Of a stretch of DNA of 64,000 bases, positions 44,770 to 62,520 are shown piece by piece (positions within the stretch are counted from its first letter, which is position 1; every line of letters starts with the position of its first letter). The translations under genes were made by a program, and so were the position numbers. The stretch comes from Hyaloraphidium curvatum SAG 235-1 (lineage: Eukaryota > Fungi > Monoblepharomycota), in NCBI GenBank assembly GCA_025558095.1, contig JAIVFI010000034.1, positions 248,001-312,000 of the forward strand. The letters run 5' to 3'. A model generated the notes under the pieces. That model saw nothing but the letters and a program-made list of their open reading frames with translations, ran no database searches and was not told the DNA's origin.

Positions 44770-46432
44770 ATGGCCGACGAAGAGCCCTCGTGCGGCACCG
44801 CGGGCCCCGCACGACGCGTAAAAGGCGAGCTATTTATGGCAGTTTCTCCGCCTACGGATTCTGATACGGCTTCCCTCCCCAGCCAAGGGCGATCCGAACC
44901 TCTGCGTGCGTCCCGCCTTCTCGCACGCCTTTCCCCCCGCTGACCCGCCAACGCAGTCCAAATGCCGCTCCGCCAAACCCACCTCCGTCCTCCGTGGCGA
45001 GCGCTGGTGCGGCCCGTGCCTCGAATCCGCCGTCCGCTTCCGCTTCTCGGTCTGCACTTCGCGCCTCCGGCCCCCTCCCGGCTCCGCCGCCTTGCTCGCC
45101 TTCTCGGGCGGCCCGGCGTCGACGGCCCTGCTCTCGCTGGCGCAGCATTTGGCGAGAGAGGAGGGCAGGAAGCCGGCCAAGTTCGCGAGGATGGCCGTGT
45201 GCCACGTGGACGAGGCGGCGGTGCTGCCGCTGGAGGAGTTCGGGGTGCTGCCGGACGAGCTGCGGGCGGCGGTCGAGGCGGCGGTGGCGACGGATGAGAG
45301 GGTGAGTTTCGTGAGGGTGGGGTTGGAGGAGATTTTCAAGGAGGTGGATGGTGTGGAGGCGGTCGCGGCCGGGTTGGAGGGGCTGTCGGTCAACGGTGGT
45401 GGGTCACCGCGTTGGGCCCTTTCTTATTCGTTCTGACGGCCGAGCGCTGAACGTTCAGGCAATGACGCGGACGGCAAGCCGCCGACTGGCACGCTTTCGC
45501 CCCGCGAGCGCCTCGTCGCTCTCTTTTCCCGGCTCGACGGCCGGCTGAGCTCCAAGGAGGACCTCCTCCACCACTTCCGCACCGCGCTCCTGGCCCGCAC
45601 AGCCCGCCGCCTGGGCTGCAGCCACGTCTTTCTGGGCGACAGCAGCGGCCGCATCGCCGTGCGCGCGCTCTCGCTGACCATCAAGGGCCGCGGCGAACGG
45701 ATGCCCCTGGACGTGGCGGCCGAGTCGCGCCCCTTCCCCGGACTCACCTTCCTGCGGCCGCTCCGCGACGTGCTGCCGGACGAGATCGCGGCTTTCAACC
45801 GCTTCCGCAGGCTCGAGCCCGTCGCCGTTCCCGGGGTCGCCTCGGCGATGCCCTTCAAGGCCAGCATCGACCGGCTGACGGAGCACCTCGTCGTCGGGCT
45901 GCAGGCCGAGTTCCCGGCGACGACGGGGGCGGTGTACAAGACGGCGTACAAGGTGGACACGCTGACGACAAGGGGGAAGCTGGTGCGGTACGGGCCGTCG
46001 GGGAGGGAGCAGGCGGTGCCCGTCGCGGGGAGCTTCCCGGCGTGCGCGCTGTGCTTGGGGGATGTGCACCCGGGAGACTACGGGTGGAGGAGGGACAGGA
46101 CGGTGGAGTCGCTGGACCAGATCGGTACAGGTCCTGCCGCGGATGGGGAGGCGCACGAGGGCAACGGACATCAGGCTGGAGCGCGAGGAGAACCGGCACA
46201 CGCCCCCGACGACCCCGGAGATCTGTTCAGGGACCTATGCTACGCCTGCCAGAACATTGCGCGGGACCTGGCGGCGTCGGCGGTGCCAGGCAGGCGCGAT
46301 CTGCGCCACTCCGAGAGTGCGGCGGCGGTAGCCGCCATGGACCTGCCCCCGCACTCTGCCGCGGCAATTGCGGCCAACAGGGCCAAGATGAGGGCGGCCG
46401 TAGCCGAGTTTCTTCTGGAGGATGATGCGTGA
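44770..46432 (+). CDS. NCS2: Cytoplasmic tRNA 2-thiolation protein 2
   Basis: N-terminal Cys motifs, LLAFSGGPASTALL, KEDLL, LGDSSGRIA..L....KGRG, RPLRDV, FPAT, CALC, LCYAC; divergent from NNR1 with 101 nt between start codons. Confidence 0.85.
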
Positions 46433-47602
46433 TGCGGGCCGTGGAGGGGGGGAGATCTGTAGTGGGGCTGTATTAGCAAACCGGACTTTCTAACCGATGT
46501 CGACCTAACAACCAGATAGGTGACCCGGCCGTGCTTTGTTTTTGGTGAAAGACCGTTCCATCCAGGCCATGGCGTTTTTGCAAAGCAGTATTTCGTAGTG
46601 TCCGGATTGTGTCCGGAGGCTTTGTAAATACACACACGTGGCGCCGCTTACGTGGCGCTCGTCGCAAGAACTACAAAAGCGGCGCCCGGGTGAATCGCCC
46701 GCGGACACCATCACCCACAACTCGGCCCCTTTGCTCCCCAGCATAGAGCGATGCGGGCCCGCAAGCGCAAGAAAAGCTTCCCGGTCGCGCTCTCGCTGTT
46801 GGGGGCGCTGTCCTGGTGGGAGCGCGAGCGCCGCGTGTGCCCCGTCCCCGTCGCCTTCTCACGGCGTCTTTCGACAGTGCCGTCAGGCACAGGAGCCTCA
46901 TCCACGACGGCCGTGCTCTCGGCTCATTGAGAGAAGTAGGTCTCACGGGGTCGCGCCGGAACGACACACCGACCTGACCATTCTCCAGCACCCATCTTCT
47001 CTTCTTTTTTTCGCTTCTTTCTTTCTGTTACCGGCTGCAACGACGGAGGGGCGACGAGCGCACGGGCGCTGCGCGGCGCCGAGGGCCGGAGACCGCCGAT
47101 CGACTCGAGCTGGACTCCACGTGCATCCTCTTGCACCCCTTGGCATTGCGCGCAACTGTGGGGCTCGGAGCTCCATCAAGCCTACCTGCATGTGCACTAT
47201 CCTGCCCGTCGCCCATGGATCTCCAACGTTGCCTTGGTGGTGAAACAACGTGTGGGTGCAAGCCTGCATTCGCCCTGCGAGCGTGCCGGCCAACGCCTTG
47301 CAGATTGATCTGGAGAATTCGTGGGCAGGGAAGGGATATCAGGTGGCAAGTCGTTGATGACAGTAGCCAGAAAACTAGTAGCGGCGTCGAGACCGTCGAG
47401 TACGGATTTCGGATGTAGCCGCACTAGTTCGCCGCAAGACTCCAAAAGGACCGTCCGCTTTTCAGCCGGCCGAGCGAGCGCCGGGCAGCCCGGGCGTTCT
47501 GCGGCGGCCGGCAGCTCTCAGCCGCGTGCCCAGGCCCTGTGGCCGGGAGCGGGGGCGCCGTCCCGGTGCTGATTGCGCCGCGGGGTCCGCGCGCGCGCGG
47601 GG

Positions 47603-49048
47603 ATGGGCGACCTTCCCCCCGCCGCCGCGTCTCCCGCCGAGCCTCCTCCCGTCGAAGAACGGGAGTTCGACGCGCGGAGGGATTTGCGGCCCGCGCAGGC
47701 GGCGCTTTGGTTCCGCTACGGCCGCGAGCGCGCCGACCTGCCGCCCAACGCGCTGCTCGTGCTGCTCGAGCGCTGCAAGTGGGACACGAAGGCCGTCGAC
47801 TACGAGCTCAACTTCCTGCACCCGCGCCCGTTCGCGCCGCCGCCATGCGACTTCACCGAGCCGTGGGACCCGCCGGGCCGCCCGCCGCCGTACCACTCGA
47901 CCGCCGGCAGGCTGCACATCAACGGCGAGCTGGTGCGGCCGACGCTGCTGCCCAGGGCGCCGTTCGCGCTGGGCGGCCCGCCGGACCCGGCGCAGGGGCC
48001 CGTGGGGCCGAGGCCGCGCGTGGCCACGGGGCCCGCGATGCCCGCCGGGCAGTGGGACCCCGGCACGCCGGCGGCACCGCAAAACGGCTTCGCCGACGGA
48101 CCAGATAGCGGCAGCCCCGACGGAGCGGGCGTGCCGGACTCGCCCGGCTTCCAGCGGCCGCCGTCGGCCGTCGGGGGCACGCTGCCCATCATCCGGACAA
48201 TCCTGCGCCCCCCGGGCTACCCGAAACCAAAGGCGCGGGGCGTGACGAAGCTGGTCGGCGAGAACGGGGAGGCCGTGCGGGGCGCGTGCGACAACTGCCG
48301 GCGGGCGAGCAAAAAGTGCGACCGCGGGCGGCCTTGCGGGCGCTGCGTCCGTGGGTTGCTTTCGGTGAAGCGGCCTGCTCCGCTTCCTGATCTTTCCGCG
48401 CCGCTTAGGCTACAAATACCCCTCCTGCAACGACCACGTCAAGTTCCCCACCGCCACCGCGGCCGCCGCGCCCTCCTCGCCCGGCTCCTCGGACCCGGAC
48501 GCCCCACCGAGCAAGCCGTTCGGTGCCCTCGACCCGAGCCAGCGGCCCGCCGTCTCCGAGGTCCGCGAGATGAACTACTCGGGCACCCGCGTGTACGAGA
48601 TGGTCGTCACGTGGGTCCCTTCTCCCCGCTCGCACGACGCCCGATTCCTAACCCTCCGCTCGCCGCAGCTTCCCCGACATCCCCCCCATCGGCGTCATGC
48701 GCCGCCCCGGCGACTCGTGGATCAACGCCACCCACATCCTGCAGGCCGCGCGCGTGGACAAGGGCCCGCGCACGCGCATCTTGACCCGGGACATCCAGAC
48801 GGGCGAGCACGAAAAGGTGCTGGGGGGATTCGGGAAGCACCAGGGGACGTGGTGGGTTTCCCTGTCGGCGCGCGCGGTGCGACATGGAGCTGACGTTTGT
48901 CGTGGCGCGTAGGATCCCGCTGCGGAGGGCGATCGAGCTGGCCAAGGAGTACGGCGTGGAGGAGCTGCTCAAGCCGCTGCTGATCGAGGACGAGAACCAG
49001 CTGCAGGTGCGGCGGGGCCCGGTGGCGGGAGGGGACGGGGATGCGTAG
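47603..49048 (+). CDS. Transcription factor: Zn2Cys6 binuclear cluster fused to an APSES/KilA-N (Mbp1/Swi4-type) DNA-binding domain
   Basis: Introns 48351-48408, 48611-48668, 48852-48912; spliced product contains [28 protein letters not shown] and [58 protein letters not shown]...LKPLL. Confidence 0.85.
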
Positions 49049-49196
49049 CTTTTGCACGGTGTTGCCTACGATACCTGGAGATCTGAATGAAAAGCCGAGG
49101 CTGTGAAGACGAGGATTCCTCTCGCGGACATCCTCGCGCGCGAACGCGTTCGATCGGGGTCAGGTCAACACCTCAAGTCGCTCCCACGCCGGCGCC

Positions 49197-50787
49197 ATGA
49201 GCGGCACGCAGCGGGCCATTGTCGAGCTCGGCGGGGAAAACTACCCCCTGCTGCTCAAGGACGTGGAATCCCTCTCCTTCGACTCGCTTGTCGACGCGAT
49301 CCGGAAGAAGGTCTCCCCGAAGGAAATCCCACAATCCGCGGTCTTTGCCTGCGTAGATAACACAGGCCGCGTTGTGCGGATCAAGGACGATGAAGATGTT
49401 TCGTACTTCCTCGCCGTCGCGCGGCTGCTCGAGGACAAGGGGCGGCAAGCCGTGCTCACCGTACGAATCAAGACGCCCGGCGCACCCACCCCCCCGCCGG
49501 ACCTCTCCGCAGGGCCGCGCGCGCGCTTGAGGGAGGCATCCAATTCGCCTTCGCCGCGGGGTTCGCCGACGCCGGCCTACGTGCCGTCGTACCGCGACCC
49601 GGGCGACGAGGGGGGAAACATCCACTTCGACCCCTCTTCGGACAGGGTGGTGGTGCTCTACGACGGGCACGGCGAGCCGGAGGGGGAGATTTCGCCGTTT
49701 ACGCCGCATCCGCCGTCGCCGATGAAGGCGGAGGGGCATGCGGGGGACGAGGAGGGCTGGGAGGACGAGGAAGAGGGCGGCGGGGAGGGAAAGGGCGACG
49801 GTGCGGGACGGACGACTTCGGACAACGCGAAGGACGGCGCCGCGCAGGGGACCCGGGGAAAGGGGAAGGGACGGCGCGGAGGAGCGCGGGCCGACGCGCC
49901 GGGCCAAGGGCACAAGGATGCCGCCGAGCCCAAGAAGCCGCAGGCCGGGCACGACGAGAAGCACGCCGTGGCGCAGCCGGCTCCCCGACCCGCCAAGCTG
50001 AGCAAGATACCCGAAATTATTCCGGACGGGGAGAACGGTTGGGGAGGCAGTGGCTACGACGTGGGTTCACCTTGAGCGGTGCAGGTCGTGTTCTGACATT
50101 CGTTTCGAGCAGGAGGCGCCCGCTCCCGCTGCTCGACCGCCCAACAGCGGTCCCCCAAAGAAGCCCAAGGAACGCGCACCCCCGAAACAACCCGCTCCCG
50201 CGCCGGCCCCGGCGTCCTCGACCCGCCGCATCGTCGTTCCCCCACCCGAAGACCAGCCCGCCAAGGTCCCCACGGCCCCCGTGCACTCCCCCAAGCTCAC
50301 ACGCCGGGAAGTCGACGAGCTGATGGCCGAGCGCCGCCGCCAGGCGCAGCTGCTGGAGGAGCGCCACGCGCTCGTGGAGCGGGACAAGGCCGAGGCGCTG
50401 GCGCGTGAGCGCGCGCACACGGAGCGGCAGAAGGAGGCCGCGGCCGAGGCCGACCGCCGGAAAAAGGAGGAGGAGGCGAGGCGGAAGGAGTCGCTGCGGG
50501 AGTGGGAGGAGCAGGAGGCCGAACGGCGCAAGAACATGGAGCGGAAGCTGCAGAAGATGGAGCTGCGGGAGTGGGACCTCGACAAGAAGAAGGAGACTCC
50601 ACCTGCCTCGCCGCGGGGAAGCGCAGAGCAGCGCGGCGGAGCCAGGGGTGCCCGCGGGCGCGGTGGACCGCCGAGCAAGGCGGGGCCATCGGGCGGCCGG
50701 CCAGCGGCACGGCCGGGGCAGGATCCGAACTGGGAGCCGCCGAGCGCCGAGGGCGCGAAGCCTTTGGTCGACGAGGGATGGAAATAA
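49197..50787 (+). CDS. Hypothetical protein: PB1-like N-terminal domain, disordered middle, coiled-coil C-terminus
   Basis: SFDSLVDAIRKK..VDNTGRVVRIKDDEDV resembles the PB1 acidic motif; intron 50061-50111; E/R/K-rich coiled coil. Confidence 0.6.
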
Positions 50788-50834
50788 GCTAGTCCTATTT
50801 GCTATTCACGGATGTACAGGCCGGTCTTGAATCC

Positions 50835-52510
50835 TCAGAGCTTTGGCCGAGTGATCGCCTTTCCGTCGCGCCAGTCCCATCCAAAGAGGAGGTCCTTGGC
50901 CACGTCCAGCCGGTCCTGGCCCCATACGAGGTCGTCGCCGATTTGGAAGGTGGGGAAGCCGCAGATCCCGCTGGCGACCGCGTCCGCGGTGTTCTTGCGC
51001 AGCAAATCGCCGGCGGCTTTCGAGTTGCCCCAGGCATCCGACGCCAGCTTTTGCCCGTCGTATCCGGCCTTCGTGAGGTACTGCACGAGCGGGTCCGAGC
51101 CCGGAGGCTTGTCGGCGATGGGCACGTTGTCGGCCCAGCACGCTTTGACTGCGCAGGAAAGCCATGTGAGATGTTTTGCGTGGAGGGCGCGCGCATGGCA
51201 CACATACAAATGACGTTGCAAAGCTTCATCACCTCCGCATCTGACCAGTTGTTGGCGATCGCCGCGCATACGATGCGCAGCGCCAGCGGGGTGCGCAGGG
51301 GGAAGTGGTCATTCCTGGAAGCGGCCGTTCGGTCAAAGTTGCGCAGACTTCTGGTACAGCGGAGAACTTGCCAATGGAACGGAACTGGGTTCGGGGCCTT
51401 TCCGCCGGCGTAGGGAAGCGTTGACCACTGACAACAAGAGTTCAACCGGCATCTTGACTTTCTGGCGGGTGGATTCGACCCACGTATTCGGCCCAACGCT
51501 TCAGCTCGACCTGCTGCCACTCCTGCCTCGCCTTGCTCGCCACAGCAGTGGGCACGATCGGGGTTCCGATCTCCTTGAACACGATCCCGAGCAAAGTAGG
51601 CTTCATCACGATCTTGAGGTTCGTGCCGGCCTCCGCTTGGATCCGCGGCAGCTGCGTGAAGCCAAGATACGTCCATGGGGAAGAGAAATCGAACCAAACT
51701 GTCAAGGTCGTGGGGAGGGAAAGGGGGCCGCGTGCGATGCGGGGCATGTGCACGGGAGCAGGCAGGTTGGCGTTGGAACGAAGCGCGGATTCGACAAACT
51801 GGGATGCTTGCGGTGAGAATAACCACGATGGAACGCATGTGGCGCGCTCACGTGGAGACGGTCCTGACCGAGGAAAACCTTGCCGCCATTTGCAAACCCG
51901 ACGCCCTTTGCTTCCACTTTCAGCGAAGGGTCCGGAACCCAGAATGCGGGCACGCTCAGTCCCCTCAGGCCGTTGACAAAGTCTTCCGTCGCCCTCTCAA
52001 GCAGGCCCTCCGCGACCGAGTCGTCCTGGACCGCCTTTTCGACCTCGTCCTCCTTCAGGATACCCGCAGCCATCCGCTTCAGGACCGCGACGTCTCCGAC
52101 GTCCACGAAAGAGGAGTGCAGAGCTTGAAAGATCCCCTGGGTCAGCCGCATCCTCCCGGAATCGTCCGGCGCCGCATGGAGAACCCGGAGCGCGCGTTCG
52201 GTGCTTCCAACATCGTTCCGGAGCTCCAGATTCCATCGCGCAGCGTAGCGGTCGATGTCCGATTGGAGGACGTTGGCTTTGTTGCCAGTAAACTTCGGAG
52301 CCGGAGGCGCCGAGGTGAGCTTGGCGACAAGGGCGGGAGACACGGGTTGCAGGCTCAACGTCGAGCCCGTACGGGCAACAACATCAAGAACCCTGACAAA
52401 AGCCAGGTATGACTGCGCCGAGAGATCAAAGTAGAGGGCGACTGCCGTGGAACGTGTCAGAAGTGTCTCCCCTTGCGGACAAACGTCTCCCCACCGTGAT
52501 TCAGGTTCAT
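50835..52510 (-). CDS. Tandem two-domain GST-kappa / 2-hydroxychromene-2-carboxylate isomerase (DsbA-like) protein with PTS1-like PKL
   Basis: Domain 1 ALYFDLSAQSY...GLSVPAFWV...FLGQDRL; domain 2 WFDFSSPWTY...GICGFPTF...VWGQDRL; ends RPKL*. Confidence 0.85.
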
Positions 52511-52779
52511 TTCCAGAGTAATTTCCAAGAAAACGATGAGGAGTTTCAGCAGACTCGCGTTTACGATCTCTGACGCAACGATGCCGCGCTCTCGGGCCCG
52601 CGTTCAGCCGCGAAGCGGAGTTGGCCGGAGCGCGCGCTCGATCCGATCGCAGTGCCGCACCCCGCCCTCAAAGCAGCATCGTGTGCCGCGCCTCTCATCA
52701 GCCAATTCGAGCGGCTCTCCAAAGGCAGCGTGCCCTTCAATCTAGCGGGATCTTGGCTGCTCGCCTCGAGGCACGCGGG

Positions 52780-60866: not shown

Positions 60867-61711
60867 ATGCTCAGTTCAACGTCTCCCCAGTCCGCCGAGT
60901 CCGATGCCCCGTCAGCGAAAGCCGGCGGGCTACCGCCGCTTCTGGCCGATACCGAGTTGCGGGCGCGGGCCAACCGGTCGACCCAGGCGAGAAAGAGCGA
61001 CGTCGACGGCCTCGGCGTGTTCGCGACCGAGCGCATCCTGAAGGGCCAGGTGGGGCGCTCCGGCCGGTCACGGGCCGGAACAGGGAGCTCATGACTACTC
61101 TGACGCAGGCCTGGTGGGAGTTCGACCCTTCGCGACACGTCCTCGTTACGAGGGAGCAGCACCACCGCCTGGTCTCTGCCGCTGCTGCGCACCCCGACCG
61201 CTATGGCCGCCTCCTCGACGCCGTCCACCGCTATTGTTTCCACTCTCGGTTTCACGGCACGGGAGTCTTTTGCCTGGACGACTCGTAGGTTGCCGGTGAA
61301 CCAGGGGTCGCAGCGACGCTGATCTGAGCACCCGGCAGGCGCTACACCAACTTCTCCTCCGACTCGCCCAACTCCTGCCCCGCCTCGGTCTTCTACGCCT
61401 CGCAGGCTATTTGTAGCGCGGCCGAATCGGTGAATCGATTCGAGTCGCCCTCAGCAAAACGATGGCGATTCTCCGACTCGCACAGGCAAGCTCCAGCTGA
61501 GCCCGATCACATTCACAAAATTCCAGGTGCCATCGTTTTGCACGGAGATGTTGCCGCCGTTGCCAGCTCTGGCGGCGCGGCAGTTGGACCTAGAGCACGT
61601 GAACTCGAGAACCAAGGCTATCTCGGCCATTTCTCGTCCGATTTCGAAAATAACAGTGGCGAGGCGCTCATCTCAATAGAAAACAGCCAGTTGCAGCCGG
61701 GATTTGGCTGA
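60867..61711 (+). CDS. Small divergent SET-domain-like protein (3' end uncertain; may be degenerate)
   Basis: KSDVDGLGVFATERILKGQ|, CLDDS|RYTNFSSDSPNS, FYASQAI; introns 61050-61108 and 61285-61338. Confidence 0.5.
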
Positions 61712-61820
61712 ATCCGAAGAATTCTTGTCCTGTTGAGAGGGAGGTGGAAGCCTTCGTGCGGGAAACAGCCCGTGATGAGCTGGCGCTCCTCGCACATCGA
61801 ATCCACTGAACAAGAACGCG

Positions 61821-62520
61821 ATGACGGATTCCGAGGGCGATGTTGAGCACGGAAACGCTGGTGGAACGCCCAAGGGTCTGTGGTTCGGAGTACGTGACGA
61901 GGGACTGGCTCGCTGCTGCCCCGATTTGATGACTTTCGCAAAGTACGCCGACAAGAACCTGACGTGCGCCAACAAGGGGCAAGGGCAAGGAGAGAAGTCG
62001 GAGGAGGACGCGTGCCAGGTGCCCGGTCGCACCATTCCGAAGGTGGGGCAGGCTGCGCCTCAGCCCGCAACTCGTGGTCATGACACGCCACCTACACCTG
62101 CTGCCTCAGGGTGCGCTCATCGTTCGGCACTTCAGCGGAAATCCCACGCGCGAGGGATGGCAAACGGTTGTGTCATTCCACTTGGAGTGCGTTCGGCCGA
62201 GCTGGGTCAAGCGTTGGGAGCTGAAGGACGACATGCTGGATTCAGCTCTATCTGCCCAGGTGAGACCGGCTTTCTGCCTTGACGATTGCATCTGATGGCC
62301 GAACTCTGCGCAGGACAAGGCCTACATCAAGGAGTGTTTCGACGTCGGCCAAAACGAGCGCTTCTGGGAGGCGAGGCGGGGCTCGCTGCATGAGGACCAG
62401 TTGTTCGTAGCCCGCACCGTCTACGAGGCGCAGCAGCAGTCGCTGACGTCCCCTGCGGCGCGGAAGGCAGAGGCAAGGAGGAAGGCGGAGGCCGATCGGA
62501 TCGCGGCCGAGGCCGAGTGA
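61821..62520 (+). CDS. Small stand-alone PARP-type zinc-finger protein
   Basis: Exons 61821-62042, 62110-62259, 62314-62520; AKYA..C...C...TIPK|GALIV...SFHLECV...LSAQ|DKAYIK. Confidence 0.6.

What the first reader, a model, noticed from the sequence alone, without database searches (positions are those of the whole stretch)
47603..49048. Hybrid transcription factor: Zn2Cys6 cluster fused to an Mbp1/Swi4-type KilA-N domain without ankyrins
Seen: after removing three GTGGGT..AG introns, one frame joins a complete six-Cys cluster (Cx2Cx6Cx5Cx2Cx7C) through a ~40-aa linker to a KilA-N/APSES domain very close to Mbp1 ([13 protein letters not shown], HEKVxGGFGKxQGTW), then stops. Known: SBF/MBF subunits have KilA-N at the N-terminus followed by ankyrin repeats and bind CGCG-core sites, while Zn2Cys6 binds CGG triplets. 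I know of no described fusion of the two. The wing residues differ (KVQGG to KVLGG, GKYQG to GKHQG). Inference: a composite-site TF or a modulator of G1/S SBF/MBF targets. The fusion is not visible in the ORF track.
Basis: partly seen in the sequence, partly recalled or inferred. Interest (0 to 1): 0.72.

Follow-up and report, generated by a model that had tools for sequence, protein, structure and literature searches.

The report
Zinc-cluster plus KilA-N hybrid transcription factor
An early-branching fungus has one spliced gene that joins a Gal4-type zinc cluster to an Mbp1-type DNA-binding domain without ankyrin repeats, a pairing we did not find described and that the public gene model misses, and the protein likely reads a two-part DNA site as a single chain.

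Summary
Observation confirmed. Three GTGGGT..AG introns (48351-48408, 48611-48668, 48852-48912) are all skipped in one 1513-nt contig of a public run guessed to be RNA; it covers the whole 422-aa frame and reads through 49007 to the stop. The protein has a complete Cx2Cx6Cx5Cx2Cx7C cluster (best solved match Pho7), a 41-aa flexible linker and an Mbp1-type KilA-N domain (E 3e-24), with no ankyrins. The NCBI model (KAI9006883.1, Hyaloraphidium curvatum, 184 aa) drops three cysteines, so databases miss the fusion. None of 148 other KilA-N representatives has a zinc cluster, and the pair is not among Shelest's 12 fungal dual types. Ankyrin-less C-terminal KilA-N proteins are not unique: several chytrids have them. 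The wing carries Leu at PCG2 Q82; that lab mutant binds MCB DNA 57-fold more weakly. A stand-alone MBF competitor is therefore unlikely here; a tethered two-module reader is the best, untested, explanation. New variant of a known kind.

The parts
47603..48350 (+). Exon 1 coding part (aa 1-249 plus 1 nt), from the ATG to the first four Cys of the zinc cluster
   Evidence: contig continuous 47432-48350
47690..47818 (+). Predicted three-helix bundle (aa 30-72), possibly UBA/CUE-like; tentative
   Evidence: single-sequence AlphaFold, mean pLDDT 60; 11 of 18 Foldseek rows name UBA/CUE but all E>=3.6; best Z 5.3 is an unrelated clamp loader
47825..48247 (+). Pro-rich low-complexity region (aa 75-215; 25% Pro), likely effector region
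   Evidence: composition; function inferred
48287..48428 (+). Zn2Cys6 cluster Cx2Cx6Cx5Cx2Cx7C (aa 229-256), split by intron 1; Ser236 at the Gal4-K18/Pho7-N299 position
   Evidence: Pfam PF00172 23.3 bits against cutoff 21; Pho7 6o19/6e33 E 0.002
48351..48408 (+). Intron 1, 58 nt
   Evidence: joint 48350-48409
48429..48551 (+). 41-aa linker, 61% Pro/Ser/Ala/Gly, no predicted helix
   Evidence: low pLDDT coil
48552..48985 (+). Mbp1/Swi4-type KilA-N winged-helix domain (about aa 298-402), split by introns 2 and 3
   Evidence: Mbp1 1mb1 E 3e-24, PCG2 4ux5 E 4e-23; Foldseek 1mb1 E 7e-8, TM 0.79
48611..48668 (+). Intron 2, 58 nt
   Evidence: joint 48610-48669
48820..48822 (+). Leu368, at the position of base-reading Q82 of PCG2
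   Evidence: alignment; 0 of 160 homologous domains have Leu, 149 have Gln
48852..48912 (+). Intron 3, 61 nt
   Evidence: joint 48850-48912, equivalent cut +1
48913..49048 (+). Exon 4: end of KilA-N, 20-aa acidic tail, TAG stop
   Evidence: contig continues unspliced to 49099; tail has 2 K/R and 5 D/E
47432..49099 (+). Span covered by the single spliced contig (5' end may be a contig break rather than the transcript start)
   Evidence: table 8 record 2

Best explanation
One spliced gene encodes a 422-aa protein with a complete zinc cluster tethered by a 41-aa linker to an Mbp1-type KilA-N domain, and it likely works as a single-chain transcription factor that grips a composite DNA site with both modules. 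Inferred mechanism: the cluster would read a CGG-like triplet in the major groove as a monomer, as Pho7 does, since no dimer helix follows it. The KilA-N wing would read a nearby CG-rich core in the minor groove. The wing is predicted to bind weakly alone (Leu at Q82, Gln at K56, acidic tail), so the tether would supply avidity and narrow the targets. The Pro-rich N-terminus would carry the activating or repressing function. Without ankyrins or a C-terminal extension it would not be an SBF/MBF subunit. It likely arose when a zinc-cluster segment was gained in front of a chytrid-type 'C-terminal KilA-N only' gene.
For: Shown: one contig with all three joints and one frame. Both domains are intact by sequence and fold. 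All six Cys are present, with Pho7's K300/K301/R306 matched by K237/K238/R243. Most PCG2 DNA contacts are kept (H53, K62, R65, G84, G86, Q89, T91). A second genome's protein P0002 is 85% identical in the KilA-N exon and keeps YKYPxC with the sixth Cys; it matches exon 2 at 41% (E 3e-11) and breaks at the same three intron sites, which suggests selection on the join. From papers: PCG2 Q82L KD 46 versus 0.81 uM, and tail deletion weakens binding more than 30-fold (PMC4333399); Pho7 binds as a monomer without a coiled coil (PMC6265462). In the 53-row tree the nearest rows are chytrid C-terminal KilA-N proteins.
Against: There are no binding data. Ser236 replaces the Lys/His/Asn that reads the CGG guanine in the solved clusters, so the cluster's site is uncertain. 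P0002 keeps the wing Gln, so the weakening is not shared by both copies, and its first five Cys were not seen. A 41-aa floppy linker fixes no spacing. The origin is weakly supported: branch 56/79, AU p 0.29 only fails to reject the grouping, the 161-row tree leaves the protein unplaced, and the profile score (+6.4) lies within the random-group control (mean 2.0, sd 8.8).
Confidence: 0.55

Rival explanations
1. The zinc cluster alone sets DNA specificity. The KilA-N domain has drifted to non-specific DNA contact or serves as a protein-binding surface, as the Bqt4 APSES domain does.
For: Several substitutions are rare among 160 homologous domains: Leu368 (0 of 160), Gln342 (1 of 160), His374 (0 of 160), Thr356 (0 of 160), plus a short insertion. 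The end branch is long. Bqt4 structures with Rap1, Sad1 and Lem2 match the fold.
Against: Q89, K62, R65 and the wing glycines are kept, and P0002 keeps both wing Gln. The KilA-N exon is far more conserved between the two copies (85%) than exon 2 (41%), which shows constraint but not which kind.
Confidence: 0.23
2. It is a competitor or modulator of SBF/MBF (or E2F) at CGCG cell-cycle boxes: it would occupy these sites without Swi6 coupling, and the zinc cluster would be accessory.
For: The domain is of the Mbp1/Swi4 type. Zoosporic fungi carry both E2F and SBF, which have overlapping sites (PMC4862756, sections 8 and 10). P0002 keeps the QxGxGxxQ motif.
Against: In the window's copy, Q82L, K56Q and an acidic tail each remove contacts that PCG2 needs. 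There is no full CDK consensus site. No cell-cycle expression data were available.
Confidence: 0.17
3. It is an artefact: two neighbouring genes, or a KilA-N-only gene as in the NCBI model, with the cluster a chance or separate feature.
For: The NCBI model has 184 aa and lacks three Cys. Only one run supports the splicing.
Against: The contig is continuous over the stretch that the NCBI model skips. That model's jump fits no GT-AG intron among the two-exon solutions enumerated. The last two exons share one frame with the cluster, and the Cys motif appeared in 0 of 100,000 shuffles.
Confidence: 0.04

Closest known systems
Mbp1/Swi4/Res1/PCG2 (SBF/MBF DNA-binding subunits)
   Same: KilA-N winged-helix domain, E 3e-24 and TM 0.79 to Mbp1; most DNA-contact residues kept
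   Different: Domain is C-terminal; no ankyrins (109 of 148 other representatives have Ank_2); no C-terminal Swi6-binding part; Q82 is Leu, K56 is Gln; zinc cluster in front
Chytrid C-terminal KilA-N-only proteins (e.g. Spizellomyces SPPG_02210; Geranomyces, Thoreauomyces, Nowakowskiella records)
   Same: Low-complexity N-terminus, SBF-type KilA-N at the very end, no ankyrins
   Different: None examined has a zinc cluster; nearly all keep the wing Gln; membership in their clade is unresolved
Fission yeast Pho7 (monomeric Zn2Cys6)
   Same: Best solved match (E 0.002); five-residue spacing between Cys3 and Cys4, KKCD..RPC; no dimer helix
   Different: Ser for Asn299; second DNA-binding domain; no evidence of orthology or of a role in phosphate control
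Fungal dual-specificity TFs (Zn cluster + C2H2 such as Cmr1, + homeodomain, + bZIP, + GATA, + copper fist)
   Same: Two DNA-binding domains of different classes in one chain (PMC5415576, Table 3)
   Different: None of the 12 fungal types includes APSES/KilA-N; that survey required at least 5 genomes and had 2 chytrids

Membership tests
Zn2Cys6 (Gal4-type) cluster | Six Cys in Cx2Cx6Cx5-12Cx2Cx6-8C spacing | tested here: met
   aa 229-256 after splicing; Pfam above cutoff on the first four Cys
Zn2Cys6 (Gal4-type) cluster | Lys/His/Asn side chain reading the CGG guanine (Gal4 K18) | tested here: not met
   Ser236; the main-chain contacts could remain
Zn2Cys6 (Gal4-type) cluster | Coiled-coil dimer helix after the cluster (typical, absent in Pho7 and AlcR) | tested here: not met
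   linker 61% P/S/A/G; no helix in a low-confidence model
Zn2Cys6 (Gal4-type) cluster | Binds two zinc ions and CGG DNA | not testable with these tools
   needs experiment
Mbp1/Swi4-type KilA-N domain | Sequence and fold similarity to Mbp1/PCG2 | tested here: met
   Pfam KilA-N 22.8 bits, just under the 23.8 cutoff
Mbp1/Swi4-type KilA-N domain | QxGxGxxQ wing motif | tested here: not met
   first Gln is Leu in the window; kept in P0002
SBF/MBF subunit | Ankyrin repeats and C-terminal partner-binding region after an N-terminal DNA-binding domain | tested here: not met
   stop 20 aa after the domain, confirmed in the contig; no Ank in Pfam
Dual-specificity TF (Shelest 2017) | Two DNA-binding domains of different classes in one protein | tested here: met
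Dual-specificity TF (Shelest 2017) | Present in 5 or more genomes | tested here: inconclusive
   one genome shown, one inferred (P0002); searches were of limited reach
Chytrid C-terminal KilA-N-only group | KilA-N domain falls within that clade | tested here: inconclusive
   sister at 56/79, AU p 0.29, profile score within control
UBA/CUE-like domain | Three-helix bundle with significant match | tested here: inconclusive
   E>=3.6, Z<=5.3; no Pfam hit

The most novel reading that the evidence does not exclude
A conserved but mis-annotated transcription factor family of Monoblepharomycota that couples fungi's two signature DNA readers, the zinc cluster and the virus-derived SBF wing. Each is attenuated at its main base-reading residue, so only a CGG-plus-CGCG composite site is bound, linking metabolic and G1/S-type promoters outside Swi6/Whi5 control.
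Probability: 0.25. Interest if true: 0.72.

Novelty: new variant of a known kind. Interest (0 to 1): 0.52.

Why it matters
If both modules work, this is a natural experiment in joining a major-groove CGG reader to a minor-groove CGCG reader. It carries a wing change already measured in PCG2, so the avidity idea can be tested directly with three constructs. It also adds to how the virus-derived KilA-N domain diversified in zoosporic fungi, which still carry both E2F and SBF. Practically, it shows that the public gene model drops half the cluster, so architecture surveys of early fungi may undercount such fusions.

Tried and rejected
No whole genome was held, so paralogues, a canonical SBF and genome-wide composite motifs could not be examined. 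Further splicing from the GT at 49007 into the next gene is possible in frame (acceptor 49163) but is not seen in the contig. No RNA holder is listed on record; X1 is a guess. Homologue searches: exon 1 found none; the KilA-N exon found 2 of 23 candidates; a profile spanning cluster and KilA-N found none of 2799 candidates, which is weak because ordinary SBF proteins were not returned either. Metagenome scans found nothing: 69 stretches unconfirmed, and one pattern hit was chance, out of frame in another gene. Viral contigs gave none. ESM Atlas gave no usable hit twice. Alignments A2, A4 and A5 were misaligned and dropped. A weak tblastn hit at 61633-61986 has no Pfam support. Four residues shared with the chytrid clade (G325, H339, A343, A384) were picked after viewing the data, and the all-column test did not confirm them. 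P0002's profile score is unreliable because it includes intron read-through. Earlier-findings look-ups were empty. Medina 2019 and Iyer 2002 were not held.

Full report
Observation. The window is 65% GC eukaryotic DNA. Removing three introns that all begin GTGGGT (48351-48408, 48611-48668, 48852-48912) gives one frame from 47603 to the TAG at 49046-49048, 422 aa long. It holds a Cx2Cx6Cx5Cx2Cx7C cluster at aa 229-256, a 41-aa linker and a KilA-N domain at about aa 298-402, followed by 20 residues. The motif arose in 0 of 100,000 shuffles. One public run, X1, holds the region; it is only guessed to be RNA. A single 1513-nt contig covers 47432-49099 without mismatches and skips exactly these three introns. 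It runs unspliced through the GT at 49007, and the next gene lies on another contig, 49171-50642. This is one run, and contigs hide rare forms, but the main transcript is the fusion and ends without ankyrins.

Identity and annotation. The KilA-N exon matches NCBI protein KAI9006883.1 of Hyaloraphidium curvatum (Monoblepharomycota) at 100%. That model, P0001, has 184 aa. It starts with five residues from an out-of-frame ATG at 47845 and jumps to the third cysteine. None of the four two-exon solutions for that jump has GT-AG ends, and the contig is continuous there. The public record therefore shows an APSES-only protein.

Second genome. P0002, from an unnamed Logan contig of 50,979 bp and called without splicing, is 85% identical in the KilA-N exon. 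It begins with YKYPHC, matching YKYPSC with the sixth cysteine, aligns to exon 2 at 41% (E 3e-11) and departs from the spliced protein at the same three places. The divergent linker points to another species. The first five cysteines would lie in an upstream exon that was not retrieved, so the full fusion there is inferred.

How common. A search of 1.84 billion representatives with P0001 gave 1108 hits; the best 150 were examined. Of the 148 other than P0001 and P0002, none has a zinc cluster by pattern or Pfam, all 148 have KilA-N and 109 have ankyrin repeats. The other 958 hits were not seen. Word-based searches and metagenome and viral scans found no further copy and are weak. Gene models elsewhere may drop the cluster, as this one does. 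Lack of ankyrins is not special: 14 rows (12 representatives plus 2 cluster members) have KilA-N at the very end behind a long N-terminus, and the named ones come from Spizellomyces, Geranomyces, Thoreauomyces, Nowakowskiella and Synchytrium. In a 53-row tree the protein is their weak sister (56/79), and grouping it with them is not rejected (AU p 0.29). The 161-row tree leaves it unplaced, and an all-column profile test is within its control. The origin is therefore a lean, not a result.

Residues. The KilA-N domain matches Mbp1 (E 3e-24) and PCG2 and folds like Mbp1 (TM 0.79, model pLDDT 51). Mapped on PCG2 (passages of PMC4333399), it keeps H53, K62, R65, G84, G86, Q89 and T91. Q82 is Leu (0 of 160 homologous domains; 149 have Gln), K56 is Gln (154 have Lys) and Y88 is His. 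In PCG2, Q82L raised the KD for MCB DNA from 0.81 to 46 uM, and loss of the basic tail cost more than 30-fold; the tail here has 2 basic and 5 acidic residues. P0002 shares the K56 and Y88 changes but keeps Q82. The cluster's best solved match is Pho7 (E 0.002 for the first four Cys), which binds as a monomer without a coiled coil (passages of PMC6265462). K300, K301 and R306 are matched, but the guanine-reading position is Ser. The linker is 61% Pro/Ser/Ala/Gly. Residues 30-72 are predicted as three helices with non-significant UBA/CUE-like matches.

Mechanism. Shown: one transcript, two intact domains, no ankyrins, the substitutions above. Inferred: a monomer whose cluster and wing bind neighbouring CG-rich elements, with the tether compensating for weak single-domain binding and the Pro-rich N-terminus as effector (0.55). 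Rivals: a cluster-driven factor with a drifting or protein-binding KilA-N (0.23); a competitor at cell-cycle boxes (0.17); an artefact (0.04).

Literature. Shelest 2017 (PMC5415576; passages, section 9 in full, supplements searched for APSES/KilA) lists 12 fungal dual types, none with APSES, under a five-genome threshold. Medina 2016 (PMC4862756; sections 8-10 and passages; preprint passage) gives the SBF/E2F background; in the parts read it mentions no such fusion. PMC5448814, PMC12470788 and PMC12638772 were seen as passages only. Nine searches listed no title or abstract opening that describes the pair; most listed papers were not read. Medina 2019 and Iyer 2002 were not held and may describe the chytrid group or related fusions. 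No InterPro architecture query could be run.

Verdict. The gene is real and spliced, probably conserved in two genomes, mis-annotated, and apparently undescribed as a domain pair. It belongs to a known kind (fungal dual-DNA-binding-domain factors) and its function is untested. Interest 0.52.

Noticed in passing
window 46750-47430 (+): Very deep, fragmented contigs (depth up to about 8e4 against 127 for the TF gene; contig depth is a poor expression measure) with joints suggesting short introns near 46816-46872, 46938-46989 and 47252-47304. No convincing ORF in a rough splice and no Rfam hit. It ends where the TF contig begins (47432). Possibly an abundant spliced non-coding RNA directly upstream.
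   Followed up: partly
P0003 (KAJ3102828.1, Phlyctochytrium planicorne): A 1873-aa protein with seven divergent KilA-N repeats and no ankyrin match, labelled swi6. P0004 (Mycena) has two.
   Followed up: partly
P0005, P0008, P0014, P0024, P0100 and others: A chytrid group of ankyrin-less proteins with SBF-type KilA-N at the C-terminus, several labelled swi6; not found described in the papers read.
   Followed up: partly
window 49198-50790 (+): Downstream gene on its own contig with an intron at 50061-50112; no Pfam match under E 0.05. The N-terminus resembles a PB1 domain (recalled, untested) and the C-terminus is coiled-coil-like.
   Followed up: no
window 47845-48331: The NCBI model joins an out-of-frame ATG to the third cysteine through a junction without GT-AG ends.
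   Followed up: yes
window 44822-46432 (+); 50835-52667 (-): Neighbours: a CTU2 tRNA thiolation gene and two DSBA-like thioredoxin stretches; no second zinc-cluster or KilA-N gene in the window.
   Followed up: partly
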